This document shows, piece after piece, positions 12,672-54,902 of a DNA stretch of 64,000 nt. Source of the DNA: Prorocentrum cordatum (taxonomy: Eukaryota); the NCBI GenBank assembly GCA_963575745.1, contig CAUYUJ010000208.1, positions 1 through 64,000 of the forward strand, given 5' to 3'. The position numbers were made by a program, and so were the translations under genes. How positions within the stretch are numbered: position 1 is the stretch's first letter; each line of letters begins with the position of its first letter. The notes under the pieces are model-generated. The model worked only from the letters and a program-made list of their open reading frames with translations, was not told where the DNA came from and searched no databases.

Positions 12672-14047
12672 GCTCTCTAACTCTGTTTCCCCAGCAGTCC
12701 CTGCCGTTGCCGACGACCAAATATTTCGCCCGGCTTGAGTGTTGCATCGTCTGGTTTAGTGTATTTTTGTTTTTGCAGTCGAATACCATTGTGAAGTGCA
12801 CTAGTCACTAGACTCTAGACTCTAGACCGTTAGATGGTCAACGATGTAGTTCTGAGTGGAAGTGGCTTTCAAAAGCCGCAGTTCCTGTCTGTGCTGGTCC
12901 TCGAAATGCTAGCTCTTCAGCTTTTGACGCCTCCAGCTGATTCTTACGTATTTCGTGGTGCTGGAGCGGCGTCGGCGGGTCAATGCGCACCACGTGCTAG
13001 CTGCTACGCAGGGGGTCGCTGGAGGCTAAGCTAAAGCGCTCGGGAGGGGCTGTCTCGGGAGGATGACGAGAGGGATGAGAGGGAGTGGGAGGGAGAGGAC
13101 GGGAAGGAGGAGGATGACAACGATGAGGAAGGAAAGGGATGCTCTGTTCAATTTACTCTGATGGGCCCCTCCAACCTGGCCCCGCCCGGGGCCCTAAACC
13201 CAGTGACTTGTTGTCGGTCCGCCCCCCGTTCGATGGTGAGGGGCCGAGGCTGTGTAAAACTACACGCTACACTGACAACCTGCGCAAATTGTCGCAACTT
13301 GAGCACCCGCTGAAAGTAGCCAAACGAGGAACTGTAGTCACCAAGTGAAGCTTGAGAGGGCCCGTGGGTCCAGGTGGCGCCGAGGTTCTGCGTCGAACCA
13401 GAGTCTCGTTGGTCTCGTTTGTTCTTCCTCCTGCTCCCCCCCCTCATCCTCATCTTCTTCTCTGTCCTCGCCCTCCCCCTTCCCTCCTCCTCCTCCTCGT
13501 CCTCATCCCTTTAACTTTTAGCTGTTCGACCCTACATCCCAGGTTATCCGATCTCAGAGCTTCGTTAGAGCCTGCCTAGAACCTAGCTGCTAGCTGCTAG
13601 CCTGGAGCGAGCCTGGGGCCTAGAGCCTCGAGCCTAGGTCCTAGATCATAGATCCCAGTCTATGTCTATGTCTATGTGTAAGGCCTAAGGTCTTATGGCG
13701 TAGTAGAGCTTTGAGCTCGGAGCTTGGAGCTTTAGGAAAGGAGAGCTTAGAGGCTGTGAGCTAAGGCTTATGGCTTAGAGTCTTAGAATCTAGAGTCAGA
13801 GCTTAGAATCTTAGAGCTCAGAGTCTGTCCTACTCCTCCGCCTCAGGGGTCCACTGAGTCATTTTCCTTCTCCATGTCCTCCTACGCCTCCTCTTCCGGG
13901 TCTATCGCGTTGCGGCGATTTGCGTCGCAAGCGTGAGCCGATAGTTGCCCAAGCGACCCAGCTTGAGATTTCAGCTTGAAATCCTTACACACTGTACGCA
14001 TCGATTCTACCGTTGCCATCAGTCCACACCGTCGCGTTCTGGTGACG

Positions 14048-15577
14048 ATGGCTTCCCAGGGTACCAGGGCCGACGCGAAGCGCCCCATGGACTCGGCGGA
14101 AGTTGAGGGGATACCGAACAAGCGCCAACAGTTGGAAGGACTCGGCTGCGCCGTTGGGTTCACTTGCATCTCGTGCAAAGTTTTGTCTTCAGCTGGGCAG
14201 GATTGGAACCAATACAAGGTCGTCAGCAAAGGCACTGCTTCCGAACACAAGGAGCCCATAGGCGAGTTTTGCAAGAAATGCGCGGTCGGGAGCCACGTCG
14301 GCCAGTTCAACATGACAGTCGGTGCAATTAAAGAGAAGATCCACAACGAACCTTCTTTCGGTCAGACGCTCAACCTCTGCGGTGCGGTGGCGCTCGAAAA
14401 AGGGATCCCCGTCAAGGAGCCGTTCCAAGAGCAATCGACCAACGCCGTCCAGCGCAATTCCACCTACTTCAAGCAATGCGGTTTCCTGGCAACGGCGCGG
14501 GAGGTGAAGAATCAGTACGGCAGGGCGCCGGAAGAGATGGGTCTCGAGATGGTCACCAAGAAAGGCCGGTTCGGCACGGAGACCGGTTATCCCATCCAAG
14601 ATCGCAGCAAGAGGTCCAAGCTCGTTAGTGCAATCGAAGTTGGCAATGAGCTTCAGACTGCAATCGCCAATCCCAATCGCCAGGTCAGGGGGGATCAGGG
14701 GCAGGACGTCTTCGCGCACGCGGCGCAGAAGGCCATGGGGAGCGACGTCTTCTACAGCGCCCAGCAGTTCGAAGCCAGGGTCAGCCAGCTGGCCAAGGCG
14801 GAGGCGGCGGCTTTATCTACTGCGGCCGCTTCGTCAGGCGGTGCCGCCGCCGATCAGAGAGAGGTAGCCCTCGACGAGGCAGCGGCGACGCTCGAATGCG
14901 AGGGGATCATGGTGGATCTAGCAGAAGACTCGGTTGCAGAAGTGACTCCATCGAAGCAAAAGGTTGGCCGCGGCAGCCGCGGCGGCCGCGGTAGTCGCAG
15001 CGGCCGCGGCCAGGGTGCGGCCAACCCGCCCAAGGCCAAGGCGTTGGCGTCTACCAGCCATCCAGCCTGCAGCCCTGGCCACGGCGTCGACGGCGCCTCA
15101 GATGATGATTGCAAAACAGCGATTACCATTGGCGGCGAGGGGAGCTCGCGTCGGAGGGAGACAGGCGTTGGAGTGTCTGAGTACATTAGGCGGTGCTCGA
15201 ACTACCAGAGTATCTTGGCGGGCGACTCACCGAACATTGGCGGGGACCTCTACCAAGTCAGCCGCCAGATGCAAAGTTTGAAGAGGAGCGGTGGGGGCAA
15301 TGTTTCGGGTGCTGCGAATACTGTACTCTACGGAAAGTTGTCGGCTGCTTGGGAGAACGATGCAAAATGCAAGGAGTTCGCCCCTTCCAACATCATGAAC
15401 CCGAAGGTGCTCGATGCGGAGGTGGGCTTGCCGGCCCTCGCGCAGAGCATCTCCAAAGTTTGTCCGATCTTTCCGACCGTGACCAAAATTGCTTTGTGGA
15501 AGCGTTGCCTGATGGACGCTTCCGCAGAGGCGAACTGGAAGGTTGTGAGCGACCTCTTGATGCCTGAGCTGCCCGAG
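14048..15577 (+). CDS. Large 5' exon of an uncharacterised host gene with an N-terminal Cys4 zinc-finger-like motif
   Basis: Complex ORF inside 13976..15772 with CISC..W..GEFCKKC. It turns low-complexity after LPE, at a candidate GA donor (GAG|GATCG, 15578). Confidence 0.7.
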
Positions 15578-16499
15578 GATCGTTCCCGGCTCGGGCTCCT
15601 CCTCCTCCTCCTCTTCCTCGTCCTCCTCCCACCTCCTCCTGCCGATTCCCACCTCCCACCTCCTACCTCCTCTCATTTACCTCCTAGGTCCTCGGTCCTT
15701 AGGTCCTACCTCCTACCTCTTACCTGGTCCTACCTCCTACATCTTACATTCTTGCATCCTAATAACAACTAGTAGCTAATCTATTATCCTCATCTTTCTC
15801 CTCATGCTACTTATCCTCTCCCCACCTCCTGCCTGCTCCTCCCTGGCCCGACCTACCTCCATGATCCACGCCTGAGGGCCTAAGGGCCTCAGGAGGATAA
15901 TAAGGGCATGGCTTTGCAGCGAAGGCTTCGTCAGATCATTGTTTTCATAATTTGCCCTCGGCCCTTCGGCTGTTGCTCCCAACGTTTCGAGGTGATCCTT
16001 GACGCTTCGCGCAGCGTATCGCCGCCCCGTCAGCTTCCTCCGTCGCTGAGCGCCACTGGCCTTGGGCCGGGGAGGCAGCCGCGTGTGCCAGAGTACAGGA
16101 GCACAGGATGGGGGGCAGTGATTGGCGGGGGCAGGGTCACTAATCCTCCCCCTCTCCTCTCGTCGTCCTCTTCCTCCTCGCCCTCGTCCTCCTGCTCTGT
16201 GAGTCCTCTCCTCTTGGGCTCATGGGCTGTCCCCTCTCCTCCCGCCTCGCCCTGCTGTTTTTCATCATCCCCTTCCTCCGCCTATTCCTACAGCGTCTTG
16301 AATGGCTTCGTTAGCACCCTCGCGGAATCATCGACATCATTGCCGTTCGCCAGCATCATAATCATCACCAGCATCAAAGCCACCATCAGCATGCTGATTT
16401 GCATCATCGGCATCCAAATCATTGTCGCCATCGTCATCACCCTCGCCAAGATCATGGGGATCACCATCGCCATGGTAATCATCATGACAGTCATTCGGG

Positions 16500-17892: not shown

Positions 17893-18241
17893 GCCTGCCC
17901 GTGTGCACGCGTGGCCCCGCGTCCACGGTGTCAGGGCGCGGGGGCGGGGGGTGCCCCGTCCCTGCGCGCCGCGCTGCGGCCGAGCGCCCAACTGGCGGTC
18001 TGCCAAGCCGCCTAGCCACGTGTCCGCACGTCGCCTTTCTTGTTGGGGCCTTCTTCGTCACGCGGTCTGACACGTGAGATCTTCACAGTCTGTCCGCCGT
18101 CCGTAGCTTCAGACGCAATGCGCCGGGGGAGGGGGTCTGTTGCCCGCCCTCGTATCTTAAGGCTGCACCGCCGCTAATAGTGTTTTGCGGGTTGTCGCAC
18201 CGCAGTGCGCCTCGCGGACGGACCCTGGTCCGCCTACTTGT

Positions 18242-18525
<284 letters not shown>

Positions 18526-19206
18526 TTAGCGCAGGTGCAGTGGCCTCCCTCCACCCCCAGGCCGTCGCCCTCTCGCCCCTTCCGCTGCTCCTTCAGTCCC
18601 CCCCCAGGCCCCCGCCAATCCATGACCTTTGAAAGGCTGGTTCACCGCGGTAAGCACTTGCCTAGGGCTTAGGGCCTAAGGGGGTGCTCTATCTATGGAT
18701 GGCTATGGGCCTAGGGCCTAGCGGCTATGGCATGGCTATGGGTTATGGGTTACGGTTATGGTAGCTAGCGGCTAAGCGGCTATGGGGCTATGAGGGGGGC
18801 CCGACTTGGGGGACTTCATGAGGAGGCTTCGTGGGAAGGCGCCCTGTAGGGGAGGCTCTATTTCAGAGGCTCTCGAGGGCCAGCTTTTCCGGGAACTTGC
18901 AGAATCCGCGGGGGGCTCGCCCCCGCAAATTTTGCGGGATTTTGCAAAATCAACGGGGGTATCTTGGGGTTCTCCTGTGGTTGTGCCGGGGCTGCGCCGA
19001 ATTCCTCAAGGGCAATGTTGGGGATCCCTTGGGGCCCTCCGCGGGGGCCTCTCGGGCAGTCTTGGGGCTCTCTTGGGGCGCCTAGCTGGCTGGGGCGTCT
19101 CTTCGGCTTGTCGTAGTAGGGAGTAGGGAGTAGGGCCGTCTTGGGGAGTGGGGCCGTCTTGTGGGTTTCTAGGCTCAGGCTCAAGGCCGGTCAGGTTCGG
19201 AGGACC

Positions 19207-20918: not shown

Positions 20919-21379
20919 ACAGGAGCTCGCCGCGGAGGGGGAAGAGAGAAAGGAGGAGGAAGAGAGAACTAAGTAAGAGGAGGAGGAAGGAGGAGGAGGA
21001 AGAGGAAGGAGAAGAAAAATAAGAGGTAGAGGAATAATCAGAGCCCGACCGTGAAACTCCGACTCGGGCGAAGCGTCAGCGCGCAACCTTTTTTACTACC
21101 CTCGCGGAGCCATCTTGAGGCCCTCTTGGAGCAGTCTTGGAGCTCCTTCCCTCCGCGCCTCCCTGCCCCCCTCCCACCCCCCCCATTGACCCGCGCACTG
21201 GAAGGCGCGAAGGGGGGGGGCAGAGGCAAGTGTTGGCCCTCGCGACATTCTGGCCAGAACGCGCCCCTCATCCCCCGGGGGCGGCGGGCGAGTCGGGCGA
21301 AACCCTGCGTGATGAGGAACGATCGGCGCGGCGCCCTTCGCTCTCGTTCCTTTCGCCGCAAGCGGCGCTCCTCCAACGC

Positions 21380-21730
21380 AACCCCCCAGCGCGACCCCAC
21401 AGCGCAACCCCCCAGCACAACTCCCCCGCCACGACCCCTCAACATTAGCCCCCCAGCACAAGTCCCCGGCACAGCCCCCCAGCACGATCGCCCAGCCCCC
21501 CCCACACCGCGACCCTCCGACACTGTCCTCCAACACAACCTCCCAGCACGACCCCCCCAACGCGACCCCCCGGCACAACCCCCCCCATCCGCTTTCCCGC
21601 GCACCCTCCCAGCACGACCCCCCAGCACAGCCCCCAGCACGTCCCCCCGGCACAACCCCCCAGCACAACCCCGCAGCACAAGCCCCCAGCACAACCCCCA
21701 CAAGAAGCAAATTGACCCCCCCAGCACGAC
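21380..21730. repeat. Degenerate minisatellite of cccc(a/g)gcac(a/g)a units
   Basis: Many cccccagcac motifs at ~20-40 bp spacing. Confidence 0.75.
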
Positions 21731-22049
21731 CGCCAAGCGCGACCGCAATGATTCGCGGCGCGTTGACTTAGACACTTAGACTCAGACACCTTGTTTTGTT
21801 ACATGCCGCGTCGTGGCTCTGGTTTTTGTTTTTCGGATTCCCAGTCTTGTTCTCTGCCCCGCCTCGGGGTTGCACATGATTGGTTTAAATTTCTACTTTG
21901 TCGCGATGCAGAGAATTGTTGATTTTTTTGTTTCTGAGAGCCTTGTGTCTTTTTGAATCCCCTGCAACCCGAGGCCTGGACAGGCCGAGGGGTTGAACCA
22001 TTCTGCCAGTCGGTTGGCCCAGGGACCTGACCACAGCCCTCAATAGGAT

Positions 22050-22305
22050 CTGGCCCTAAGGCCCTAGGGCCTAGGGCCTAGGGTCCCAGAGGTCCCAGAG
22101 GTCCTAGGCCCCTGCCCTCCCTAGACTCCAGACTCTAGGCCCTAGGCCCTCGGCCCTCGGCCCTGGGCCCTGGGCCCTAGGCCCTTAGGCCTTAGGCCCT
22201 AGCCCCTAGGCCCTAGGCCCTTAGGCCCTTAGGCCCTTAGGCCCTAGGGAGGCCCTAGGCCCGAGGCCATGCCCTTGGGCCCTAGGGCCCATAGGGCCCT
22301 AGGCG
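22050..22305. repeat. ggccctag/ggcccttag degenerate satellite (also ~34170-34425 and ~36205-36275)
   Basis: CTAG-containing 7-9 bp units lying between predicted exons. Confidence 0.8.
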
Positions 22306-22356
22306 GCCCCCAAGCTTCATAGCTTCATTATTTATCCGCTCCCCCCCTGCCGCCAG

Positions 22357-22415
22357 GAGGTCAATTCTACCAGGAGTCCAAGTCCATCCACCGTGTTCCT
22401 CAGCGATTTGGTATC
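22357..22415 (+). pseudogene. 5' half of the host exon interrupted by element 1
   Basis: CAG acceptor at 22354-22356. Reads EVNSTRSPSPSTVFLSDLV+tc and joins in frame to 33057 (tc|a gag ctc). Confidence 0.75.
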
Positions 22416-22801
22416 GTGAGCGAACAGCCGAGGCACGAATGCTGTCTCGCGGGCACAGCAGCGAGGACGCGATGCGCGTGCGTCCGCGCGCCCCGCAGCG
22501 AGCGCGTGAGGTTGCGAGGGGCGCTTCGCCGCGAGGCGACGACACGCGAAACGCGAGAAAGATGGAGCCGCGGTTTTGTCGGATGCGCCGCGGCTAGGTC
22601 GCCGCGGAGGGAGCGCACGCGAGCGTTCACCGCGGCACCGGCCAGCCTTGCCGCGCACAGGAACAGTCATGCGTGGCGGCTAGGCCGCCGCGGAGGGAGC
22701 GCGCGCGACCCGTCCGCGGCGCCGACCAGCCTTGCCGCTCGCAGGTTCCATAATTGTTTGCGGCAGGCGGGGCGCCCATCTTCCTGTGGGCGCGTTTCGC
22801 C
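22416..22801 (+). repeat. Split direct repeat A1 (386 bp) of element 1
   Basis: gtgagcgaacag...gcgtttcgcc; no difference from A2 seen by eye. Confidence 0.95.
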
Positions 22802-24366
22802 TGCCGTTTCGGGCCCTGGCCCCGCGGCGTTTCGCTCTGGCCCCGTGTCCCTGGCCCTTTCTCTCTCGCCCTTCTGTCCTTCGGTGTCCTCCCGCCCCCT
22901 CTCGCGCCTGGCCCTTTCCCCTCTGCTTCGCTCCGCTCTCGCCCCGGCCCGCCTCTTGCCTCTCGCCCCGCGGCCCGCCGCCGGCCCTGTTCTCGGCCCC
23001 TCGGCCTCCCGTTCTGTCCCGCCGTCGGTCCCTTCGCTCGGTCTCTCGGTCCTGCCGTCCTCCCGCGCGCCGGTCTCCGCGCCGTCCGCCCCGCCGCGCG
23101 TCGGCGGGTCGCTCGCCCTCCGCTTCGCCCGCCGCGCGCGCAGGTTCCTCCTCCTTCTCCCGCGCGCGCGCAGGACAACCGCGGCCCCGCCGAGGCGGGC
23201 GGGCCGCGTTGGCTCAGCGCGCGCAAGACCAATCGCGGCCCCGCCGAGGCGGGCGGGCCGCGCTCTCGCGCGCGTGCAGATTGATTTCGACCCGCCGAGG
23301 TGGGCGGGCCGCGCGATGCGCCCAGGCCGAAGGGCGCCCCGTTCTGGCCCCGTCGCCGCGTCGTCGTGTCGTCGTTGGCGCGTCGCGCCGCCGCCGCCGC
23401 CGCTGCTGCCGCTGCGCCGTCGCGTCCGTGTCGCGTCGGCTCGTCGTGCTCTGTCGCGTCGTCGTCGGGGCGTCGTGCTGCCGCTCGCCGCTGCCGCCGG
23501 TGTGTCGCTGCGGCCGTCGCCGTCGTGCCCGCCGCCGCCGCTGCGGTGGCCGCCGCCGCCGCCGCCGCTTCGTGTCCCGCTTCCGCTTTGGCCCCGGCGG
23601 GGCCTGCCCCGGCTCCGGTGGGGCCCGCTCCGGCCCTGGTGGCGTCCCGGTCCCTCCCTGGGCGCGGTGCTCCGCTCCTTCGTCGCCTCTGCTGGACGCG
23701 GCTCGTTTCGCGGCGGGTGCGCTGGGTCCCGGGCCGGCGCCCCGTCCGCTCCTCGTCGTTTTGCTTGGCTCGAAAGTTCTTTTCTGCCCATGGTCGGGCA
23801 TCTGCGCAAGTGTGCGCACGGGGCTCGTGGACTCGCGGCAGGAGATCTGGGTTGTTGTGACACCCAGACTACCTGCTGCAAGTCCGCGAGTACCCACCCC
23901 GGCGCCTCGCGCCCGCACTGGCGGGCAGGCGGACCGCCGGGGACATCCGTACCTGCGTTCGGCTCGTGTCGGTCGGCCCGGATCGGCCCCGGTGCCAGGC
24001 CGGCCCGTCCGGACTCCTGCAGAGACGGCGACTCGCGTTGCCCGTGCAGTCCCGGTCGAGCGCGCCAGACGCAGCGCGCGCGCGACCAGGTCGATGTTAA
24101 AGTCGCGGCGCCAGCGAGCCCGTTTCCCGCAGTGGCAGATCTCGTGGAGGTTGGGCTCGCAGCGCGCCCCAGCAGCGGCCGCGGCGGTGCGCGGTAGGAC
24201 ATGGAAAAGGATTTAGACGGCTTGCGCCAACCAGGCAAGGGAGATGTGGAGTGTGATCGGGCCCATCGGGGATCACGCTGACTCCACTAGCGTCGGCCCA
24301 CTGAGGCCAGGACACGGCACGACCAGGCAAGGTGGCGATGCCCGGATCATCATCTCCGGGGGGCGC

Positions 24367-24971
24367 TCGGCCCACTGGGGCCCCGCCCGCACCGGCACGT
24401 TCGATTGAACGTGACCGGTGGGTCCACTGGGACCCCTTCAGGGAGCAGCGTGCACGCCCATGTTGGCTTTGCCCGTACCGGCGCGCTCACTGGACGCGAC
24501 CGGTGGTCCACTGGGACCCCTCTCCCTCCGCTCAAGGGCTGCAGGCAGGCCCACTGGGGCCCTGCCTGCACCGGCGCGATCGATTGGACGTGTCCGGTGG
24601 GTCCACTGGGACCCCATCAGGGAGAAGCGAGCAAGCCCACGTTGGCTTTGCCCGTACCGGCGCGCTCACTGGACGCGACCGGTGGTCCACTGGGACCCCT
24701 CTCCCTCCGCTCAAGGGCTGCACGCAGGCCCACTGGGGCCCTGCCTGCACCGGCACGATCGTTGGACGTGACCGGTAGGTCCACTGGGACCCCTTCAGGG
24801 AGCAGCGAGCAAGCCCATGTTGGCTTTGCCCGTACCGGCGCGCTCACTGGACGCGACCGGTGGTCCACTGGGACCCCTCTCCCCCCCGCTCAAGGGCTGC
24901 AGGCAGGCCCACTGGGGCCCTGCCTACACCGGCACGATCGTTGGACGTGACCGGTTGGTCCACTGGGACCC
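24367..24971 (+). repeat. Tandem repeat in the element 1 leader, ~179-bp unit x ~3.2, each unit made of two related halves
   Basis: ttg(g/a)acgtg(a/t)ccggt.ggtccactgggacc at ~24405, 24584, 24762 and 24941; the ggtccactgggacc core occurs twice per unit. Confidence 0.9.
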
Positions 24972-25507
24972 GCTAGCCCTATGTTCTCCCAGGACGGCCT
25001 TTTGGTGGCCCCGCTCCTGGGTGACAGTGACGCGCCAAGGCCTGGCGCCCCGTTCGGGGCAGCGGACACCCGGCGCGAGCTGCGGGAGCAAGCGGCACCG
25101 ACAGCTGAGAACGACGGACGGCCGGCGGCTCCGGCGGACGGTCCGGGCGGGGCGGTCCGGCTCGCTTACGAGGCTCCGCCATCCCGCCCGCCCCCCCCGC
25201 TCTCCGGGGCCCGCGTGTCGGGATTCGTGGCGCATGCGTGATCTCGCGCGCAGGCGGACTCGGGCCCCGTTACCGTTCCCGTCGCCGGTCGCACGTCGGT
25301 TTCTCCGAGGCTTGCATTCGATCGTGCTTCGTGGCGGCTTCGCCGTGTCGGCCTCGGCCTCGTCTTTCCCGAGGCTCTCGCCCACCCGCCGACCCGCCAG
25401 TCCCGGTACCTCGTGTTCCGCGAACGTGCGACAGAGCGAGCCGCGCCGCGCGGACAGTGCAGCGGACTCCAGGTTTCCCTTCGTTCGCCGCGCAAACAAT
25501 TGCCGCC

Positions 25508-27026
25508 ATGGAGGCGGCCGCTGCCTTGCGTTTCTTTCTCAAGAAGCATGCGATGGCGACAGGGGCTCCAGACCCGGACACATGGCTGAATGACATGGTC
25601 GCGATTCTCGACCGAGCGGAGGCACGTGTCCGCCGCCCGCGCGCGCGCTCCCGCTCCCGCCCGCGCGTCCGTGCGCGCGATCCGGCCGTCCCGCGCGGCC
25701 ACCCGCGCGAGCGTCCCGTGCAACAGGTGTACACCCCGCAGGCACTCGTGTACGTCAACACAAAGAAGATTGAGATCTCGCCTGGAAAGGCTCACGCCCT
25801 CGACCAGGCTATACAGGCAAGCGCGCGCCCAGAACCGCCGCGACGGTCGCCCTGCGACCGCCGCCGTTCAGGCGGCGAAGAAGGAGTTCGCACCTGCTGG
25901 GACCACCGCGCCTGCCGGGCCAGCGGCACCCGCAGCGGACCCGCTGGCGGAGCTCACCCGCATCCTCACCAAGGATGACGCCCCGACGGTTCACGTCGAC
26001 TTCCAGGCGCAGCTGAACGCCATCACCCTGGCCAACTTGCCCACCGCGGCGTGGCCCAGGCGCGCCCCCCCCCCTCCCAGCCTGTTTCGCCGGTCCGCGG
26101 CCGCCCGTCCGGCCGCGTCGCGTCAGGACCGTGCGCGTCGATTCCCTCGCATCCGAGGTCGACCGCCTACAGAAGAAGAAAGGGCTTGCCGCCCCTTTTG
26201 TCAACGTCGACTTGCGCCTGTGGCTTCCCACGGGCGCGTCCGCCGTCGGCCGCCCACATGACGACGATGCCACCCAGGCGGGCGCGGGCGGCGGGGCCAA
26301 GCCTCGCCTGATGAATTGGACCGAGTGGCACCTCGCCTTCGACCAGTACCTCGCTGTCCCGCCCGCCGACCGTACTCGCGGACCCTCCTCGGCGGCGCAG
26401 GTACGCTCTGGCCGCTGCCGCAACGAAGCAGCTCGACTTCGCCGCGGCACTCGCACACAAGCAGATCTGCCTCCTGGCATCTTGCCGCGCGCGCCCGCGC
26501 GCCCTCCGGCCAGCGGATTCCCCGCTCGCTTCGCAGGTAGCGGCCCACGCCCAGCTCAAGGGCCGCAAAGCCCACCTGGGCGTGTTCTACGACCAGGTCG
26601 CCCGCCGCTCCTGGGCCGAGAAGGCCGCCGCTGGCGTCACAGGTTTCCAGGCCCGCCACCCCGCTCCGCCGCGCGCGCCCGCGCCCCGCCCCCCCGCCGC
26701 GGACCTCGGCATCGCAGGTGAGTCAGGCGGCCCTCGCCCTCGACGAGGTGCTGCTCCGCCAGGCGGAGCGGGAATACGATTTTGACGAGAAGAGCCTCGG
26801 CAGCGCCCCCGCCGCCACGAAGCAGGAGGGAGCCGGTCCGGCCCGAGGCCCGGCGACGCCCAAGCGCAGCCAGGCCCACCGTGCGGGCCATGGCCTGACC
26901 GCCCAGCAGAGTCAGCAGAGTCAGCAGGGCAAGCGCAGGGCCGACACCGGGGCCAAGACCGGCTCCTGGAAGAGCTGGAACAACAAGAGCAACGGCGGGG
27001 GCGGCGGCAAATGGCAGCGCCGCTGA
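25508..27026 (+). CDS. Element 1 ORF1 (gag-like), 7 exons
   Basis: Predicted introns 25622-25726, 25817-25871, 26060-26126, 26346-26400, 26477-26536 and 26651-26717 (5 GC-AG, 1 GT-AG). The spliced product MEAAAALRFF...WHLAFDQYALAAAATKQLDFAAALAHKQICL...GKWQRR* is collinear with element 2 ORF1. Confidence 0.85.
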
Positions 27027-27259
27027 TCAGCGACAGCGCGCGCCTGACGGGCACAGCCGTCAGCACGGCGCGCGGAATTTTGGGCTTGCTGCTAATTAGA
27101 GCGTCCGACGCGGTAAAGGGTCCGAGGCGCACCAGGAATGCGCGGGCCCCGCCCTCCCTCCTGCGCCCTCCACGGCGCCCCCCTCGCCCTCCACGGCGCG
27201 CCCCTCGCCTTGGCGCCCCCCTCGCCCTCCGCGGCGCGTGCGTTCAGCTTGCTTTCGCC

Positions 27260-29899
27260 ATGAAGCGCTTTCGCGAGCACGCGAGCCCGGACGAGCCGGC
27301 TCCCAAACGGTCTGTGTCTGATGCTCGCAAGTTGTCTTTCGCCGAAGCGGCCGCCCTCGAAGGCGATGCCGGCTTCGAGCCGGGCTGCAAGCTTTCGCAG
27401 GACACTTTGGCGGCGCTTGAATGGATGGCATCGAGGCCACCCGAAGAGGCGCCCAGGTGCGCGCGCAAGGCGACCGCGCGCCACGACCGAGCGCAGGTAA
27501 GGGAGGAGCGTGAAGGGGCTGTTCTGCGGGTCCTCTCCATGGCACATCAGTTCAGGACGGCCGGATTCGTCGAAATCTGGGGTCGCGGCGCGGACCCGGG
27601 CGTCGCCAACGTAGCATCCGGCGTCAACGGCCCGCTCTTCGAACGCCTGGTCGCCGATGTGGACTTCCACGACCCGAAATGCGTTGACTTCTTCCGTGAG
27701 GTGCAACGCGCGAGGGGCGGCTCTGCTTCTCGCGCCCGACGGAGCGCGGCCGGCGAAGGGTGCACCGCTGATTGGGACACTCGAAAAATCCGGCACGGGG
27801 ACGGAGATGGCGCATAAGCCGCTGATATCAGCGGAAGAGATCCTTCGAGGCCGGCGCGCGCGCGCGTCGGCAGGGGCCCGGCTTCTCCTCCCTGGCCCCC
27901 CGCCCCGCCGCGCGCCAGCCAATGCACGGGACAGAAAAGCATTGTTCAAAAGGACACGGCCAAGCCCGTGCGACGAAGCGCTGCACGAGGGCGCACTCGC
28001 CGACGCGAGCGCGGGGCGATTGACGACGCCCCGGCGACTGAGCCCCGACGACGTGCCCCCGGATGCCGCGGTAATCCCCCGCTTCGGCGTGGAGCAGGGG
28101 ACGCGGCCGGACGGCACCGCTAAGGTACCCCGACGGCCGCCCGCGCCGCTCATTCGCGGACCGCCGCCCGCGCGCCAGGTGCGCGCCGTAGACGACTGCA
28201 GCGCGGCCCACCTCAACAAGGGTACGGAGCCGCAGGAACGGATGAAGCATGACACTGTCGACGCGCTGTTTGACGCGTGTCGGAAATTGGCGCGACGCGT
28301 TTCTCGGGCCCCGACGCCGCGTGCGCTCTGCCCTGTTCAGGCACCCCTGGGGCCCTTGGAGCTCTTCAAGGCCGATATTGATTCCGCCTTCCGCAGAATC
28401 CCCTTGCGCCCGGAGCACCGACGCTTCGCTTGGGTCATCTATTGCTTCGCCGGCGTCACCTGGGGAGCCCAGCACGTTGCCCTCCCGTTCGGAGCAGGCC
28501 CGCGCGGGCCATCCCGCCCCACCCGCCGCCCCGCCGCGCGTCGCGGCGCAGTCAGCAGCGTACACAACTGGGAGAGAATCGGCGCGGCCCTAGTGGCCAT
28601 CTGCAGGCGCCTCTTGCGGATCCCAATCCTGAGGTACGTCGACGATCTGTTCGGCGTCGAGCGCTCCGGGGAGGCCCGTCTCGCTCTGTCCCCTCCCCCC
28701 CTTCCGTCGCACCCGGTCGACCCTCTCCGCGCTCGCGCAAAGGCCCAGCACGCCCTCTCGTGCGTGGTCCGGGTGATCAGGTGCATCCTGGGCCCTACGT
28801 CGGTGGCCGATAAGAAAACTGAGTCGGGCCCGTCGCTCGTGATTCTCGGACTAGCCATCTCGGTGCACCGCGCGCGACGCGTTCGCGAATGGGGGGCTAG
28901 GGCACTGTGCGTGCGGTGTCGCAGACCTCACGCAAAGGGCTGATTGCGCGCCCGTCCAAGGACAAGGTCGACAAATGGACGAACCGAATCAGGACGGCGC
29001 TTGACGACGGTTCGATGACCGCAGGCGCGCGCGTGATCGCGCGCCGCGCGCGCCGGGGGCGACACCTTTCTTTGCACAGGTGGGGCCGCCAAGCTCGCGG
29101 GCGCGTTGTCGTGGGCGGCGTCGTGGCAATTCCGCAAACTAGGCCGTGCGATGCTGCGGCCCTTGTTCGCCCACGCACACTCGGGGCGTCCGTTTCTACC
29201 GCGCCCCGCCCTGCGCAGCCTGGCGTGGTGGTTGGAAGTGTTGCAGAGAAGCGTTGCAGAGACAAGGGAATGGGAGCCCGCGGACACCCGCCCGCCGGTC
29301 CTTGCCTTCGCTGACGCCCGGGGCGAGCCCCCACGAGCGGCCGCCGTCCTCTGGATCGACGGACGTTGGGAATACACAGACCAGATGCCGCCGGCCTGGC
29401 TAACGAGGCCCCGATCGCGCGCCGGCGACCGATCGATGCAATTCGGCCTGCGCGCAGGCAATTCCAGCAGCGGAGCGACGATCAGATCGCCGGACTCGAG
29501 ATGCTCGCTTCGGCCTTGGCGATCTCCACCTGGCAGAAGGAGCTCCGGGGCCGCAAGGTTCGCCTCTTTAGCGACAACACGATCGCCGAATGGTCGTTCC
29601 GAAAGGGATCAGCGAAGTGCTGCGACCACGGGGCCATCGTCCACCACTTCTGGTCGGTGATCGGGCTGCTCCAGATCAACCTCCGGATCGACCGTGTCCC
29701 TTCCGGCGGGCCCGCGCGTTATCTCTGTCAGGTCGGGTCCCACTCCCGCGGCGCGCCAGTTGATAACATTTCTGACCTGCCCAGTCGGGAGGATTATGAT
29801 CTCATGACACGCATTGGGGCCACCTGGAGGCGCCCGTGGCTGCGGCCAGAATTCTGGGACCTCCAGCTGCCATGCCAGCTCGCGGCCCGTCCCGTCTGA
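27260..29899 (+). CDS. Element 1 reverse transcriptase-RNase H, 12 exons
   Basis: RT motifs VRAVDD, KADIDSAFRRIP, LPFGAVSS, YVDD and ILG; RNase H motifs FADA, IAGLE, SDN and RVPSVDNISDLPSR. Predicted introns 27449-27496, 27701-27758, 27850-27918, 28125-28178, 28290-28340, 28498-28551, 28674-28742, 28863-28924, 29025-29079, 29408-29457 and 29706-29759. Confidence 0.93.
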
Positions 29900-30033
29900 G
29901 CGCTCTCGCGGCCTCGCCAGTGCTCTCCTTCCCCCCGCTCCTGCTCTCCCGCCCACCCGTCACCCCGCGCTCGCTCGCGCGTAGCGTCATGCGGCAAGTC
30001 TGCCCCCGCCCCGAGGGCATTTTCAACGTATCC

Positions 30034-30471
30034 ATGGCGCGCGATCGAACACCGCCGCGGAGGTGCTGTTACGTTCGGCTGATCCAGCGAGCGCACACCG
30101 CAAGTCATCTCGCGAAGGTCGCGGCGCATTCCCTTTTCAGGAGCGAGATGCGGCAGCGCGACACGGACGCGGCGGCCTCGTGGCTGCGGGGCCGCGGGAT
30201 CCGCTCGTGGTTCCAGCTCGGGCGGCTTCCCGCGGATTCAGTGCCGTCCCTGGGCTTGGCTAGGGACGCGCGCGCGACGATCCTCCGGGCCATCCAGCTG
30301 GCCATCGAATGCCGACTGGACGAAGCACTCTGCACCTTCGGCACGGAACTCGAACCGGAGTCCAGCTGCTCAAGCAGCGAATCTGATACCATCGACTATC
30401 GCACGACGATGGTGGGCGCGCCGCAGGGCGCGGACGTCGATGACGACCCAATCGAAACGACGTCGCCTTAG
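30034..30471 (+). CDS. Element 1 small extra ORF (145 aa) with a SAM-like helical segment
   Basis: ATG at 30034 inside ORF 29836..30471. AAASWLRGRGIRSWFQLGRLPADSVPSLGLARDARATILRAI resembles the C-terminal helices of SAM domains; acidic tail. Confidence 0.55.
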   Translation: MARDRTPPRRCCYVRLIQRAHTASHLAKVAAHSLFRSEMRQRDTDAAASWLRGRGIRSWFQLGRLPADSVPSLGLARDARATILRAIQLAIECRLDEALCTFGTELEPESSCSSSESDTIDYRTTMVGAPQGADVDDDPIETTSP

Positions 30472-30666
30472 CCGCGCCGTCACCGGCCAGCGCCGGTCGC
30501 TCCCGCTCGACCCCGCGCAAGGCTCGCATCAGAGAAAGAGACGCGAGCGCCGCCCGGGAAGGCGCGTCAGTAACGCGGCACGAACGCTCTCACACGCGAA
30601 GGGGGCTATCGAGAGGCGCGCAGGGCGCGGGGCGACCTCTCTCAACGCGCCCCTCGGCGCGCCAGA

Positions 30667-32238
30667 ATGAAGCTCGCCGACCAGATCGCCGTTGCGACCC
30701 CGTGGGCGTCACCCACGGTCGTTGAGGAAGTCGCCAAGTTTCTGGTTTCTTGCGATGTGTTCGCGATCTCATCTGTGCGGGCGGTTGGCGCACCGGAAAA
30801 CTGGAGCGGCTACGTGAATCTGTCGCCCGACGCGCAGCGCGCGATCGCGCTCTTCGCGCGAGCAAAGCCGCCGCCGGGCCCGCCACCTGCGGCGGCGTTC
30901 GTGAGTGACGAGGTGCCTGCGGCGCCCGTGTGCGCTCAGCCGTGTGTCTCCTCCGCCGCTGGCTCCTCCTCTTCCTCCTCGTCCTCCTCCTCCTCCTCGT
31001 CCTCCTCGCCCCCCCCGCGGGCGGGTGGTAGGAGTCCAGCCGCGCAGGCACCCGCACGCCCGCAACAGGAGGGCGTACTCTCGCAGCGGCTGCAATTAGC
31101 GCGGGCGACGGCCGCGCTGAAAGCGTCGCCCCTGGGCTCGAGAAGAGGAGGCCCGCGCGCCGCAATTCGACGCCTGGCCGTTGCGCCGAGCGACCCCGAA
31201 TTCAGGAAGCGCGCCTTATTCGGGGCCCGGTGCGCCGCCGTCCTCAACGGTGCCCCGCGCTCCATCGGCACGTGGACAGCCGGCCTGAGGTGCTGGTTCC
31301 GTTTCGCCAAATCGCAGCTCGGAAAAGGGGACAGCCCCCTCCCGCCAACTGCGGACGAGCTATGTCTTTGGGCTTTGTGCTTCTCGAACCCCGGCACTTT
31401 TGCCAATTACAAAGCCCAGGTCGACAAGGCCTGCACGCTGCTGGGCCTCGACCGCTCAGCGTTCAGCAGCCCCGCCGTTTCGCGCGCAAAGGCCGCGATC
31501 AAGCACCGTGCGCCCCAGCCTGACCCGCGACCTCCCCCTGTCACGCGGAAGGCGTTAGTCGCGATGTTGCCGCACGTGCCTGACCCTCAGGTGCGAGCGC
31601 TGTTCGTAGTCGCCTTCGCACTGGCCTTGAGGCTTCCCTCGGAGGCGCTGTTGATCAGCATAGGCGACCCAGCACGGGCGGCCAACTTCCGGTTCACGCA
31701 GGAGGAACTGGACCGCCCAGTGCCGACCATCGTGCTTTTCAACACGAGCGAGGCGGTCGTACTCCACCTCTCGAGGCGAAAGCATAAGCCCAGGCCTAGC
31801 GAAGTCAGGCGCTCGTGCTGGTGCAGCATCTGCACCGCGACCTGCCCAGTGCACGCCCCGCGCGCCCTACTGGGCGACCTCGCGCCGGGTGCGTCTCCTT
31901 TTGCCCACCTGGCAAAGCCGACCAGAGCCGGGCGCGTGCTCCCCGTGCCAGCAATTACCCGCAACCTGCGCAGGTCGGCGCAAGCGGCGGGCCTCCCCAA
32001 TGCCGCCCGCATCACCTCGAAGTGCCTGCGGCGCGGCCACACGGAGACTCTCCGCCAAAGCGGGGGGAGCCTCGCCACCATCTTGAGAGCCGGCAACTGG
32101 AGGTCCGGCGCATTTAAGGCCTACCTGGACCAGCCTGCCCTGGAAGACGCGGCGACGGGCGAGGGCATGGCCCTCTCCGCCAGCGCGGGCCCTGAGGCCG
32201 CGGGCCATGACCCCGCAGGCGCTGCATCTCAGCCGTAA
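30667..32238 (+). CDS. Element 1 tyrosine recombinase (523 aa, one continuous ORF)
   Basis: LRLPSE (catalytic R), RRKHK, CWC..C...CPVH, KCLRRG (HxxR position), AGNWRS and AYL (catalytic Y). Confidence 0.93.
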   Translation: MKLADQIAVATPWASPTVVEEVAKFLVSCDVFAISSVRAVGAPENWSGYVNLSPDAQRAIALFARAKPPPGPPPAAAFVSDEVPAAPVCAQPCVSSAAGSSSSSSSSSSSSSSSPPPRAGGRSPAAQAPARPQQEGVLSQRLQLARATAALKASPLGSRRGGPRAAIRRLAVAPSDPEFRKRALFGARCAAVLNGAPRSIGTWTAGLRCWFRFAKSQLGKGDSPLPPTADELCLWALCFSNPGTFANYKAQVDKACTLLGLDRSAFSSPAVSRAKAAIKHRAPQPDPRPPPVTRKALVAMLPHVPDPQVRALFVVAFALALRLPSEALLISIGDPARAANFRFTQEELDRPVPTIVLFNTSEAVVLHLSRRKHKPRPSEVRRSCWCSICTATCPVHAPRALLGDLAPGASPFAHLAKPTRAGRVLPVPAITRNLRRSAQAAGLPNAARITSKCLRRGHTETLRQSGGSLATILRAGNWRSGAFKAYLDQPALEDAATGEGMALSASAGPEAAGHDPAGAASQP

Positions 32239-32342
32239 TGCGCGCTCGTCGCGCCCTTCATCCCGCACGCGGTAAGAAACGTCGCGACGTTGGCAGTGGG
32301 GGCGCGCGCACACGACGGCTGACGCCGGCCTGCTGTTGCATT

Positions 32343-33056
32343 GGGTTGTAGCAGCCAGGCGTCGCCGTCGAGGCGCGCGCCGCCACCGCCTTGTGCTCGG
32401 CGGGGGCGGCGCCGCCCGACGCGCCGCCGCACCCATCGCAGGATGGTTGCTGCGACCGCGTGGCGGACGCCGCAGAGCGCCGCGCCCGCAGCGCTGTGGT
32501 GAGCGAACAGCCGAGGCACGAATGCTGTCTCGCGGGCACAGCAGCGAGGACGCGATGCGCGTGCGTCCGCGCGCCCCGCAGCGAGCGCGTGAGGTTGCGA
32601 GGGGCGCTTCGCCGCGAGGCGACGACACGCGAAACGCGAGAAAGATGGAGCCGCGGTTTTGTCGGATGCGCCGCGGCTAGGTCGCCGCGGAGGGAGCGCA
32701 CGCGAGCGTTCACCGCGGCACCGGCCAGCCTTGCCGCGCACAGGAACAGTCATGCGTGGCGGCTAGGCCGCCGCGGAGGGAGCGCGCGCGACCCGTCCGC
32801 GGCGCCGACCAGCCTTGCCGCTCGCAGGTTCCATAATTGTTTGCGGCAGGCGGGGCGCCCATCTTCCTGTGGGCGCGTTTCGCCCCACCCACATCCGCCC
32901 GGGTTGTAGCAGCCAGGCGTCGCCGTCGAGGCGCGCGCCGCCACCGCCTTGTGCTCGGCGGGGGCGGCGCCGCCCGACGCGCCGCCGCACCCATCGCAGG
33001 ATGGTTGCTGCGACCGCGTGGCGGACGCCGCAGAGCGCCGCGCCCGCAGCGCTGTG
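32343..33056 (+). repeat. Element 1 3' block: B1 (156 bp), A2 (386 bp), 16-bp spacer, B2 (156 bp)
   Basis: gggttgtagcagcc...cgcagcgctgtg at 32343 and 32901; the A copy starts at 32499. Confidence 0.95.
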
Positions 33057-35954
33057 AGAGCTCGTTCGCAAGCCCAGCGCAGAGGATGAATACTCGCAGC
33101 TTGGTACCGAGGGTCCTATCAGCTTGAAGTTGCTGCCGTTTGTGGTGAACGCCGAGCTGGCTGACCGCTTTTCCCTATTGTTATTTGCTGCCGAGGCTCG
33201 GGGGAGGCGAAAACATACCGAGACCCGTTCTGCTACCCCGTTTGCCTTTCGTCGCCCCGGTAGAATTGGGGCAGGAGGGGTTGTCAGCATCCAGTGTCGG
33301 TATGGTTGTTTTTGCCTTGGTCCTGATAGGCGGTCGGCGTGCCGCTCGAGGCCCACATCGATTTCATCTCGCGCAACGGGCGCGAGTGGAAGGCTTCGAG
33401 ATTGCACAGCTTGCTGTCGATCTGCAAGGGCCCGGTGGGCTTGCTCGACCCCGCGAACACCACTCACTTGACCCATAGCTCTGATGACATCGAGTTTCTC
33501 ATGAAGGGCAGTCTTCCAGGCTCAGATTCCCAGGGCACGCTGGATTCGGATGTCTCTGCGAACGATGACGCGCTGGCACTCTTGAAGCAGATGGCGAGTG
33601 GCGACGAGTCGCTCATGACGAAGTTTTCGGAGTGGGAAGACGTGCTGCTCACAGAAGGCCCTTGCTCAAGAGATCTGAAAGACCTCGAGTACCGCCTTGG
33701 CCAAGTCACCGAGCCTGAGGAGATGGCCACCCCCGAGGGGCTGGTGCGTTTGATCGAACTCCTCGCGGAAGCCCTGAAGAAGCTTCCCGATCTCACACAA
33801 GGTCTCCGCGCTGGATCCACCACCCATCTTGAGATCCGGCTTTCGCAAGCAGCGCCTGCGGCGGCGGAGGAGATCCTCAAGTGCAACGAGAACGATCAGG
33901 CGACGTTCCTCGCCACATTCTACGCACCGTTGCAAGCGGCCATCCTCGAGGTAGCCCCCGATCTCAAGGCGAGATTGAAAGTCTGCTTGGCCACGCTATC
34001 CGTGATCCAGGAGAAGACTCTCTCGATGCAGAAGTTGATTAACTTGCTGACCGCGATCGATGGGGTCCAGCAGGGTAAGGACTCATGGGGGAACCTTGAC
34101 TCCCGTCAACGCTCCCATTGCCAAATTCTGCCTCCCAGCGCCCAGCGCCCTTGCACTTAGCAGCTAGTAGCCTAGGGCCTAGCCTAGTAGGGCCTAGGGC
34201 CTAGGGCCTAGCAGCTAGCACCAAGCACCTAGCACCCAGCATCGATCAGCCTAGCGCCCAGCAGCTGGGCGCATTGTGCGTGGTATCCCAGTGACTCGAC
34301 TCTCCAGTGCATCCTAGGTCCTAGGTCCTTCTCAGGTCCTAGGTCCTAAGTCCAAGGTCCTACCTAGGGATTAGGTCCTAGGCCCTAGGGCCCTAGAGCC
34401 TAGGGCCTGGGTCCTATGTCCTAGGCGTTCGAAGGCAGATTTTGCATCAGGGGCGAGCTTTGATGTTGGTCAGGGTGTTTCTCATCAAAGCAGGATGAGA
34501 ACTGGAGCTTATTGCGCACCGCCCTGGTCGCTTGCAAGGGCCTCAAGTTTCAGGAAGACAGCTCGGAGAGAATTGCCGCCTACGAATTCCGAGCGGAGTG
34601 CATTCGGGCGATTGCCAGTGAGCCGATCGATACGTGGCACCCGAAGTACGCCACAAACCAGCTTATCATGTTGCAGTGTTTGGCTGAACTATTCGGTCCA
34701 GCAGACGTGCCAGAGGTCAGCAAGCTGCTTGATATTGCGAGGTTTACGGTCGACGTCGCAGCTGCTCGTGGCGCCGTGGTGCAGACCGGGCCGCCCGACC
34801 AGTCCAACGCCATGTTCAAGACCTCTGCCAGCGCTGTTCAGGCCCTGCATTGAGTGGCATTGTTTCCACTTCCCACTTCAATTGGCCCTAGCTCGTTCAT
34901 GCATGCCAGCCGCTTCCCATCGGATGCTTGTGGCGTTCCAAACTGACGAACTACTGAACTCTGAAAGGTGCAGATACGGCCTGCCCGTGAGATTAGACTC
35001 GACCATTAATTAATATATTGTTGTCTTTCTTGCTTCTCATGCCCCTCAGTAGTCTTATGCTGCTGCTCCTGCTGATCCTTCTCCTCCTTATCCCTCATCT
35101 ATGACCCCAATGCCATATCCCTTATCATGCTGTTCCTCTGCTCTCTACTCTCTCCTCCATGTCCTCCTCTCCTCCCTCCTCCTCCCCGTCTCCGCCTCCT
35201 CCTCCTCCTCCTAGCTCCTAGCGGCGCCTAGGCGCCTAGGCCCTGGGTCCTAAGGCTGTCTAAGTCCCAGGGTCCTTTCAGTCAGAATCTACAGTCCATG
35301 CGTCCATGCTGGGCGGGGAAATGAAAACATTGCCATCAGCTCGACGAGCTCGTCCGCCAGCTTCAGAAAGCCAGAGCCCTCGCGACTGTGGATGAGAGTT
35401 TGTGGCTGAACAGCAACTTCGGCAAGTGCGACATCAAGGCGACATTCGACTCGTTGGTCGAATCGGCGACCTCGACGCGCAATGCATACATCAGCGGCAC
35501 GTGCACGGTTTTCGCTGGCATGGTCGAGTTAGGGAAGGAAGAGCTCGGCGATCTTGGGGCTACGTGGAGGAAAGAGCTGCCGGACAATGCCTCCATGATT
35601 TGCTTGCGTGAGAAGGCGAAGGAGATTCTTCCAGACGTGAAGGTGATGGAGCAGAAATGGAAGAACCTCAGCACCTGAACTACCAGCTTGGCGAAGGTCC
35701 TGAATAAGTTCAAGAATGTGGAGAGTTGCCCTGAGCTCGATGCGCAGCAGAAGGTGAACGACAACGGCATTGCCATGCTTAAGGTTTACCGCTTGGCGAT
35801 TTGCGAGTTTGTGTTCTTGGAAGATGAGAACCTGAACAAGGATACCATCAGCAAGCAGATCAAGGCGCTTGCTTCCATCGGCGCACAGACAGTCGACCTC
35901 CACAAGACGATCTTCAACCATGTGCAGGGTATTTTGCAGGGGAAAAAAGCATAG
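33057..35954 (+). pseudogene. 3' exons of the interrupted host gene (alpha-helical-looking protein, function unknown)
   Basis: Exons ~33057-33159, 33330-~34074, ~34494-34841 and ~35330-35954. An in-frame TGA at 35676-35678 separates same-frame ORFs 35388..35678 and 35688..35954. Confidence 0.7.
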
Positions 35955-54889: not shown

Positions 54890-54902
54890 CACACACACAC
54901 AA

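What the first reader, a model, noticed from the sequence alone, without database searches (positions are those of the whole stretch)
22357..33159. Precise insertion into a host exon without target duplication; the empty site and circle junction can be rebuilt
Seen: deleting 22416-33056 joins gat ttg gta tc|a gag ctc gtt cgc aag, giving FLSDLVSELVRKPSAEDEY as one open exon. The internal B1-A2 junction is cgctGTG|GTGagcg, exactly the right end joined to the left end. Both outer junctions read GTGAG, which mimics a 5-bp duplication, but keeping that copy adds an in-frame TGA. Established: YR retrotransposons integrate a circular intermediate, usually without target duplication. Inference: this is a clean record of the family's recombination site.
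Basis: partly seen in the sequence, partly recalled or inferred. Interest (0 to 1): 0.7.

Follow-up and report, generated by a model that had tools for sequence, protein, structure and literature searches.

The report
Fresh tyrosine-recombinase retrotransposon insertion
A complete, very young jumping gene of a known kind (a retrotransposon that inserts with a tyrosine recombinase) sits in single-copy dinoflagellate DNA with base-exact ends, but whether its landing site originally held three extra bases (GTG) could not be settled.

Summary
The sequence facts are all correct. A 10,641-bp element (22416-33056, + strand) has split direct repeats A1-[genes]-B1A2-spacer-B2. The A pair (386 bp) and the B pair (156 bp) are each 100% identical. 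The internal B1|A2 joint is exactly right end plus left end. It encodes a divergent reverse transcriptase and a Cre-like tyrosine recombinase that Pfam misses, so it is an Ngaro-like member of the DIRS order. That kind is already described in dinoflagellates. This scan had already noted an intron-rich family of the same kind on another piece of this genome.

- No empty allele, paralog or other copy could be found in reads, metagenomes or protein databases.
- The "open exon" argument is weak. All three left-flank frames are open, only the right flank shows codon-like composition, and no homolog exists.
- The published DIRS1 model predicts an element flanked by one trinucleotide at both ends, one copy coming from the target.
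- Against that rival, the internal joint carries GTG twice.

My odds: no shared bases about 0.45, shared GTG about 0.35, other about 0.2. This is an ordinary new member of a known kind.

The parts
22357..22415 (+). Left flank: putative 5' part of a host exon, behind a pyrimidine-rich tract and CAG|G at 22356
   Evidence: Sequence read. Single-copy by blastn in the window. No coding periodicity: 4198 of 5000 shuffles reach its value. Exon status is inferred, not shown.
22416..33056 (+). Whole element 1 (10,641 bp): A1-[ORFs]-B1-A2-spacer-B2
   Evidence: Contig word depth in run X1 is 55-150 over the element against 2.5-10 over the nearer flanks (the tool warns that this is not a copy number).
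22416..22801 (+). A1 repeat, begins GTGAGCG
   Evidence: 386 of 386 bases identical to A2. A contig of run X4 begins at 22416 (record 24).
24369..24904 (+). Three 179-bp tandem repeats in the long 5' region
   Evidence: families D2, D3.
27615..28943 (+). Reverse transcriptase reading frame (FKADIDSAFRR, LPFG, YVDD), read through two 54-base introns at 28125-28178 (GT-AG) and 28498-28551 (GC-AG)
   Evidence: (2 of 10 non-self relatives carry PF00078).
29037..29660 (+). Probable RNase H part
   Evidence: 36% identical to the matching part of element 2. The assignment rests on position behind the RT and a D-A-x motif, so it is inferred; Pfam is blank.
30574..32238 (+). Tyrosine recombinase frame; the Cre-like two-domain part is 31174-32238
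   Evidence: Residues R153, K203, K283, R286, W309, Y317.
32343..32498 (+). B1 repeat, ends CGCTGTG
   Evidence: 156 of 156 bases identical to B2.
32499..32884 (+). A2 repeat
   Evidence: Run X2 contig covers 32469-32884 with 0 differences.
32885..32900 (+). 16-bp C-rich spacer between A2 and B2, part of a stretch shared with element 2
32901..33056 (+). B2 repeat, the right end
33057..33159 (+). Right flank: putative 3' part of the host exon, frame from 33058
   Evidence: GC at codon positions is 0.65/0.35/0.74. 4 of 5000 shuffles reach this, but so do 59 of 310 windows of nearby host-like DNA.
33160..33329 (+). Putative intron (GC donor, pyrimidine tract, AG|G) that would link the exon in phase to the next ORF
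   Evidence: Sequence; composition switch. Inferred.
33330..34157 (+). 276-codon ORF with strong coding composition and no homolog
   Evidence: 0 of 500 shuffles reach its value.

Best explanation
Element 1 is a full-length, very recently inserted tyrosine-recombinase retrotransposon of the split-direct-repeat (Ngaro-like) type, in single-copy DNA of a dinoflagellate. Shown: its RNA-side genes (RT, probable RNase H, Cre-like recombinase) lie on the + strand. Its ends are base-exact, and the internal B1|A2 joint is the right end abutted to the left end with no base missing or added. Inferred: the B1A2 joint serves as the template that restores and joins the cDNA ends, so the integrating molecule carries ...CGCTGTG|GTGAGCG.... 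The recombinase then exchanged strands between the two GTGs and between TC and AG of the target, without any shared bases and without a target duplication. On this reading the empty site is GTATC|AGAGCTC, the insertion probably split a 162-base coding exon, and the second GTGAG is a chance AG in the flank.
For: The repeats are 100% identical and their borders sharp. The termini occur only at the expected places. The recombinase is real. It has 1117 relatives at E<=0.001. 9 of 51 aligned members match PF00589. The family profile hits Cre at E=1e-4 over the HxxR..W..Y region. The AlphaFold model has pLDDT 91.3 and matches Cre over both domains at E=6e-7, TM 0.55-0.64. The catalytic set R153, K203, K283, R286, W309, Y317 is present. 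The RT is real: 10 non-self relatives were found, 2 of them carrying PF00078, and the ADIDSAFRR, LPFG and YVDD motifs are conserved. The element is young and active: contigs of runs X1 and X2 match 0.9-4.6 kb stretches with 0-1 differences, and depth over the element is about tenfold the flank depth. For 'no shared bases': the internal joint holds GTG twice, so both terminal GTGs are element-encoded. A circle templated on that joint cannot recombine through a shared GTG or GTGAG and still give the observed right junction (worked through). An empty site without GTG keeps a frame open that has a good acceptor at 22356, a length of 162 = 54 x 3, codon-like composition in its right part (4 of 5000 shuffles), and an in-phase GC-AG intron to a strongly coding ORF.
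Against: The element begins and ends with the same trinucleotide, about 1 in 64 by chance, and the flank adds AG, about 1 in 16. That is just what the printed shared-trinucleotide model for DIRS1-like elements predicts (PMC3266345, PMC7192593). Known tyrosine recombinases cut with a 6-8 base stagger (recalled), so an exchange with no overlap would be unusual. I found no dyad symmetry at the joint: 25 of 300 shuffles score as well. The exon is unproven. The left part has no coding signal (4198 of 5000 shuffles reach it). 59 of 310 nearby windows reach the right part's value. All three left frames are open. No family matched and no homolog beyond the window's own protein was found. No empty allele was seen, and no contig joint skips 22416-33056 in the 4 runs laid.
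Confidence: 0.45

Rival explanations
1. Shared-core integration, as proposed for DIRS1-like elements and for Cryptons. The integrating circle carries a single GTG (or GTGAG) at its junction and recombines with an identical GTG(AG) in the target. One of the two terminal GTGs is then of host origin, and the empty site is GTATC-GTG-AGAGCTC. The flank is then not an uninterrupted coding exon in the reader's frame.
For: Both outer junctions fit this exactly. It explains the identical terminal trinucleotide and the AG without any coincidence. PMC3266345 (passages read) reports that 23 of 28 DIRS1-like elements begin and end with NTT, that in almost all of them this trinucleotide is complementary to a 3-bp circular junction, and that integration is by recombination with an identical genomic sequence. 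[quoted passage not shown] The left flank shows no coding signal.
Against: The internal B1|A2 joint reads GTG twice instead of once. If that joint templates the circle junction, as all models assume, a crossover in either GTG predicts a right junction with GTGGTG, which is not seen. This reading also puts a TGA into the only frame that stays open across the site.
Confidence: 0.35
2. Recombinase-independent or imprecise entry. A linear cDNA with restored ends was captured at a chromosome break by end joining, or integration removed some target bases. The junctions are then clean, but the empty site cannot be rebuilt by simple deletion.
For: PMC7192593 (abstract and passages read) found mostly linear, single-stranded DIRS-1 cDNA and could not amplify a circle junction. 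There is no duplication and no shared core at the junctions if GTG is element-encoded.
Against: The ends coincide to the base with the repeat borders, which end joining rarely preserves. The element keeps an intact recombinase with all catalytic residues. Nothing in the window indicates a deletion.
Confidence: 0.1
3. Independent of the three above: the flanks are not a coding exon at all (intron, untranslated or intergenic DNA), and the open joined frame is a by-product of G+C-rich sequence.
For: All three left frames are open for 31-41 codons. The left part has no periodicity. 0 of 132 flank ORFs reached a Pfam threshold. The downstream ORF matches only itself.
Against: There is a strong acceptor-like site at 22356. 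The right part has codon-like composition in the same frame. An in-phase GC..AG|G intron leads to an ORF with clear coding composition.
Confidence: 0.45

Closest known systems
Ngaro retrotransposons (DIRS order), e.g. those of Cafeteria burkhardae (PMC8547959, passages read)
   Same: [quoted passage not shown] The gene order is gag-like, then RT and RNase H, then tyrosine recombinase. It is G+C-rich, present in several near-identical copies, and no methyltransferase was detected.
   Different: It is 10.6 kb against about 6 kb. It has a 3-kb repeat-rich 5' region and short introns inside the RT gene. The RT and the recombinase are too divergent for Pfam, whereas the Cafeteria proteins match PF00078 and PF00589. 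Its place in a tree was not tested.
DIRS-type elements of Symbiodinium (de Mendoza et al. 2018, PMC5890265, passages read)
   Same: Dinoflagellate host. A-coding-B-A-B repeat plan. A separate recombinase ORF. [quoted passage not shown]
   Different: No DNMT domain was found here: 0 of 84 ORFs of 70 residues or more in 22300-33200 reached a Pfam threshold. Sequence relationship to those elements was not tested.
DIRS1-like elements and their 3-bp circular junction (Piednoel et al. 2011, PMC3266345; Malicki et al. 2020, PMC7192593)
   Same: The element begins and ends with one trinucleotide (GTG here, NTT there). An internal sequence records the joint of the two ends. There is no classical target duplication.
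   Different: The repeats are direct, not inverted. At the internal joint the trinucleotide is doubled (GTGGTG), not merged into a single 3-bp overlap.
Cryptons and Starships (tyrosine-recombinase DNA transposons; PMC13465315, passages read)
   Same: Short direct repeats at the ends that may be a crossover core shared with the target rather than a duplication.
   Different: Those have no RT and no RNA intermediate. Here the 5-base repeat may be chance.
Cre recombinase of phage P1
   Same: Best structural match over both domains. The R, K, R, W and Y catalytic positions are shared; position 283 is K where Cre has its H.
   Different: 14% identity. A CxC...C..H cluster is inserted in the catalytic domain. 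No lox-like dyad was seen at the joint.

Membership tests
DIRS order (tyrosine-recombinase retrotransposons) | Encodes a reverse transcriptase | tested here: met
   Pfam is blank for this copy. However, 10 non-self relatives were found at E 1e-49 to 4e-17, 2 of them carrying PF00078, and the RT motifs are invariant in the alignment. Element 2's RT hits RVT_1 at E=0.0024, below Pfam's threshold.
DIRS order (tyrosine-recombinase retrotransposons) | Encodes a tyrosine recombinase instead of a DDE integrase | tested here: met
   Cre-like fold, full catalytic set, 9 of 51 relatives match PF00589. No integrase family matched any ORF.
DIRS order (tyrosine-recombinase retrotransposons) | Terminal repeats plus an internal sequence that records the joint of the two ends | tested here: met
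   B1|A2 equals the B2 end plus the A1 start, base for base.
DIRS order (tyrosine-recombinase retrotransposons) | No target site duplication | tested here: inconclusive
   No host bases are repeated if GTG belongs to the element. A 3-base (GTG) or 5-base (GTGAG) direct repeat exists if it does not. No empty site was found.
Ngaro-like | Split direct repeats A1...B1A2B2 with the internal pair downstream of the recombinase gene | tested here: met
   The recombinase frame ends at 32238 and B1 starts at 32343.
Ngaro-like | No methyltransferase domain | tested here: inconclusive
   No methyltransferase family matched among 84 ORFs. Pfam also missed the RT and the recombinase here, so a blank is weak evidence. 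29661-31173 stays unassigned.
Ngaro-like | Groups with Ngaro in RT or recombinase trees | not tested
   No named reference sequences were at hand; the protein libraries searched carry no names for the hits.
PAT-like | Split direct repeats plus a methyltransferase domain | tested here: inconclusive
   Repeats are met; no methyltransferase was detected (see above).
DIRS1-like | Inverted terminal repeats with internal complementary regions that overlap on a 3-bp junction | tested here: not met
   The repeats are direct. No long inverted pair was found at the ends. The trinucleotide is doubled at the joint, not overlapped.

The most novel reading that the evidence does not exclude
In this dinoflagellate family the recombinase joins element and target with no shared base at all. 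The exchange would fall exactly between two tandem, element-encoded GTGs. That would differ from the shared-trinucleotide model printed for DIRS1-like elements and from the 6-8 base overlap of known tyrosine recombinases. This locus would then be a base-exact record of such an event for a split-direct-repeat element.
Probability: 0.4. Interest if true: 0.45.

Novelty: new member of a known kind. Interest (0 to 1): 0.3.

Why it matters
How tyrosine-recombinase retrotransposons choose and cut their targets has never been shown biochemically. PMC7192593 says the specificity of the DIRS-1 recombinase is untested and that a circle junction could not be amplified. A young copy with perfect repeats in single-copy DNA is the kind of locus where one empty allele would decide between a crossover with shared bases and one without. 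By itself, with the empty site missing, this is one more annotated insertion of a class already known from dinoflagellates.

Tried and rejected
**Searches for an empty site or other copies**
- The whole genome is not held.
- Paralog of the flanks in the window: none.
- Other copies or fragments of element 1 in the window: none.
- Public runs: 7 were listed, none on record as RNA ('no RNA holder listed'). In the 4 runs laid, no joint skips 22416-33056. The two joints listed near there (22185>34190, 22221>34188) have 20-22 bases on the shorter side and lie in the CCCTAGG-type satellites, so I discard them. Many rows of that output were not shown.
- Left-flank 23-mer in JGI metagenome contigs: 0 matches.
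- Recombinase protein in metagenome contigs, viral contigs and genome contigs: pattern matches only, none confirmed by tblastn.

**Host gene**
- 0 of 132 flank ORFs passed Pfam. One sub-threshold PRP38_assoc hit lies on the minus strand at 18237-18641.
- ORF 33330-34157 found nothing among longer proteins and only the window's own protein among those of similar length.

**Element proteins**
- Pfam found nothing above threshold for 13 + 19 + 52 ORFs.
- Single-sequence searches of the PDB were blank for the RT and the recombinase.

**Recombination site**
- Dyad symmetry at the B|A joint is not above chance.
- A 6-base overlap (GTGGTG) with heteroduplex resolution is rejected. It predicts an overlap of wholly element or wholly target sequence at each junction, not the half-and-half pattern seen (reasoning).
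- Splicing the element out as an intron, GT at 22416 to AG at 33057-33058, would remove two host bases and shift the frame. I did not pursue this.

**Other**
- Element 2's A1 and left flank are not in the window. A 100-N gap at 55108-55207 lies where they would be.
- Earlier notes of this scan hold nothing near this place and nothing like this sequence.
- PMC3783388 has no passage on target sites.
- I saw no open paper giving an empty-site analysis for Ngaro or PAT elements. Goodwin and Poulter 2004 and Poulter and Butler 2015 were not available to me, and supplements were not opened.
Full report
**What is there**

The window is G+C-rich, 55-73% in 2-kb steps. No whole genome is held for it. 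Earlier notes of this scan on other pieces of the same genome call the organism a dinoflagellate; I did not test that.

Between 22416 and 33056 lies a 10,641-bp element with split direct repeats.
- A1 22416-22801 and A2 32499-32884 are identical at 386 of 386 bases.
- B1 32343-32498 and B2 32901-33056 are identical at 156 of 156 bases.
- The first base outside each repeat end mismatches.
- A 16-bp C-rich spacer (32885-32900) separates A2 from B2.

The plan is therefore A1-[9.5 kb]-B1-A2-spacer-B2. The 22-base termini occur only at the expected two places each.

- left: GGTATC|GTGAGCG
- internal: CGCTGTG|GTGAGCG
- right: CGCTGTG|AGAGCTC

A 416-base contig of an independent public run covers the internal joint with no difference (run X2).

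**What it encodes**

Pfam gave nothing above threshold for any of the 84 stop-to-stop frames of 70 residues or more on either strand. That at first looked like a problem for the retrotransposon reading. The frames themselves resolve it.

Frame 27615-28943 carries FKADIDSAFRRIP, LPFG and YVDD.
- It has 10 non-self relatives in metagenome assemblies, at E 1e-49 to 4e-17. Two of them carry PF00078.
- In the alignment, this copy and its closest relatives have extra stretches at fixed places.
- In the DNA two of these stretches are 54-base units bounded by GT..AG (28125-28178) and GC..AG (28498-28551).
- Removing them restores the family consensus ...DGTAK-VRAVDD... and ...LPFGA-VSSVH....

Frame 30574-32238 ends in a tyrosine recombinase.
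- It has 1117 relatives at E<=0.001.
- 9 of 51 aligned members match PF00589.
- The family profile finds Cre at E=1e-4 over the HxxR...W...Y segment.
- An AlphaFold model has mean pLDDT 91.3 and matches Cre over both domains at E=6e-7, TM 0.55-0.64.
- R153, K203, K283 (H in 39 of 51 members, K in 8), R286, W309 and Y317 are in place.

No methyltransferase or integrase family was seen. With repeats of the A1...B1A2B2 kind behind the recombinase gene, the element is Ngaro-like within the DIRS order.

**Age and copy number**

The repeats are perfect. Contigs of two runs match stretches of 0.9-4.6 kb with 0 or 1 differences. Contig word depth over the element in run X1 is 55-150, against 2.5-10 over the nearer single-copy flanks. 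The tool warns that depth is not a copy number. I read it only as 'several near-identical copies'.

A second, older relative lies on the minus strand at about 46230-55100.
- Its RT and recombinase are 33-34% identical to element 1's.
- Its B pair is 97% identical.
- Its 5' end is lost at a 100-N gap.

**The target**

The flanks are single-copy in the window. That by itself means little, because all three left-flank frames are open for 31-41 codons.

Points in favour of an exon:
- a pyrimidine tract with CAG|G at 22356;
- a joined length of 162 bases, which is 54 codons;
- codon-like G+C (0.65/0.35/0.74) in the right part, reached by 4 of 5000 shuffles;
- a GC...AG|G interval (33160-33329) that links it in phase to a 276-codon ORF with clear coding composition.

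Points against:
- the left part has no signal (4198 of 5000 shuffles reach it);
- 59 of 310 windows of nearby host-like DNA reach the right part's value;
- no Pfam family matched in 132 flank ORFs;
- the downstream ORF matches nothing but itself.

I put the exon at about even odds.

**Can the empty site be rebuilt?**

Only up to three bases. If both terminal GTGs belong to the element, the site was GTATC|AGAGCTC. If one GTG came from the target, it was GTATC-GTG-AGAGCTC. Because the flank goes on with AG, that is the same string as a 5-base GTGAG core.

The second reading is not exotic. For DIRS1-like elements, Piednoel et al. (PMC3266345) report three things. 23 of 28 elements begin and end with one trinucleotide. 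In almost all, that trinucleotide matches a 3-bp circular junction. Integration is by recombination with an identical genomic sequence. Malicki et al. [quoted passage not shown] Cryptons are described the same way (PMC13465315). An element that starts and ends with GTG (1 in 64 by chance), next to a flank AG (1 in 16), fits that model without coincidence.

What speaks against it is the internal joint. It reads GTG twice, not once. All models take that joint as the template of the circle junction. A crossover in either GTG of such a circle would leave GTGGTG at the right end, which is not there. The second reading also places a stop in the only frame that stays open across the site. Neither argument is decisive.

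**Searches for the deciding data**

All of these came back empty.
- No paralog of the flanks or second copy of element 1 in the window.
- No contig joint across the element in four public runs, and no RNA run listed.
- No match of the left flank in JGI metagenome contigs.
- No relatives of the recombinase in metagenome, viral or prokaryote genome contigs.
- The joint shows no dyad symmetry above chance.
- Element 2 gives only a right end (...TTT|GCGC) and an internal joint (...TTT|TTCC). That hints at a similar near-doubling but proves nothing.

**Comparison and verdict**

The kind is known. Split-direct-repeat tyrosine-recombinase retrotransposons without target duplications are textbook (PMC8969392, PMC8547959), and DIRS-type elements with the A-coding-B-A-B plan are described in Symbiodinium (PMC5890265). 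The statement that a circular intermediate is 'established' is too strong. For DIRS-1 the cDNA found was mostly linear and single-stranded, and the circle junction could not be amplified (PMC7192593).

My odds:
- no shared bases: 0.45
- shared GTG(AG): 0.35
- imprecise or recombinase-independent entry, or other: 0.2

Interest is modest. It would rise if an empty allele showed a crossover without homology.

Noticed in passing
window 46230-55107, minus strand: A second, older tyrosine-recombinase retrotransposon. RT is at 50693-49878, the recombinase at 48016-47134, B1 at 46748-46898 and B2 at 46230-46380 (97% identical). It is 33-34% identical in protein to element 1. Its A1 and left flank are missing at a 100-N gap (55108-55207).
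   Followed up: partly
window 28125-28178 and 28498-28551: Two 54-base, in-frame, stop-free intervals inside the RT gene, bounded by GT..AG and GC..AG. They are absent from more distant relatives, and their removal restores the family consensus.
   Followed up: partly
window 32860-32905 and 46375-46430 (minus strand): The end of A2, the C-rich spacer (CCCACCC..TCCGCCC) and the start of B2 are alike in elements 1 and 2 (51 invariant of 93 alignment columns), although their proteins are only about a third identical. This may be a cis signal, perhaps for priming, at the A2/B2 border.
   Followed up: partly
window 31816-31854 (recombinase residues 215-227): A CWCxxCxxTCPVH cluster inside the catalytic domain. 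C215, C217 and C224 are invariant and H227 is kept in at least 90% of 51 relatives. It looks like a zinc-binding insert that Cre lacks.
   Followed up: no
window 32020-32022: The histidine of the recombinase's HxxR motif is lysine in this copy (K in 8 of 51 relatives, H in 39).
   Followed up: no
window 24369-24904; also 53451-54051 in element 2: Tandem repeats in the long 5' regions of both elements: 179-bp units in element 1 and about 70-bp units in element 2.
   Followed up: no
window 22044-22305 and 34171-34411: CCCTAGG/CCCTTAGG-type satellite arrays bracket the 1.2-kb single-copy stretch that received the element. They produced two false 'skip' joints when the reads were laid.
   Followed up: partly
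window 21357-21712: About 19 copies of a 13-base C-rich unit (CCCCCAGCACAAC-like) just upstream of the satellite.
   Followed up: no
window 13967-15769 and 33330-34157, + strand: Two long ORFs (601 and 276 codons) with protein-like sequence. Neither matched a Pfam family. The second had no database relative beyond the window's own protein, so it may be a lineage-specific gene; the first was not searched for relatives.
   Followed up: partly
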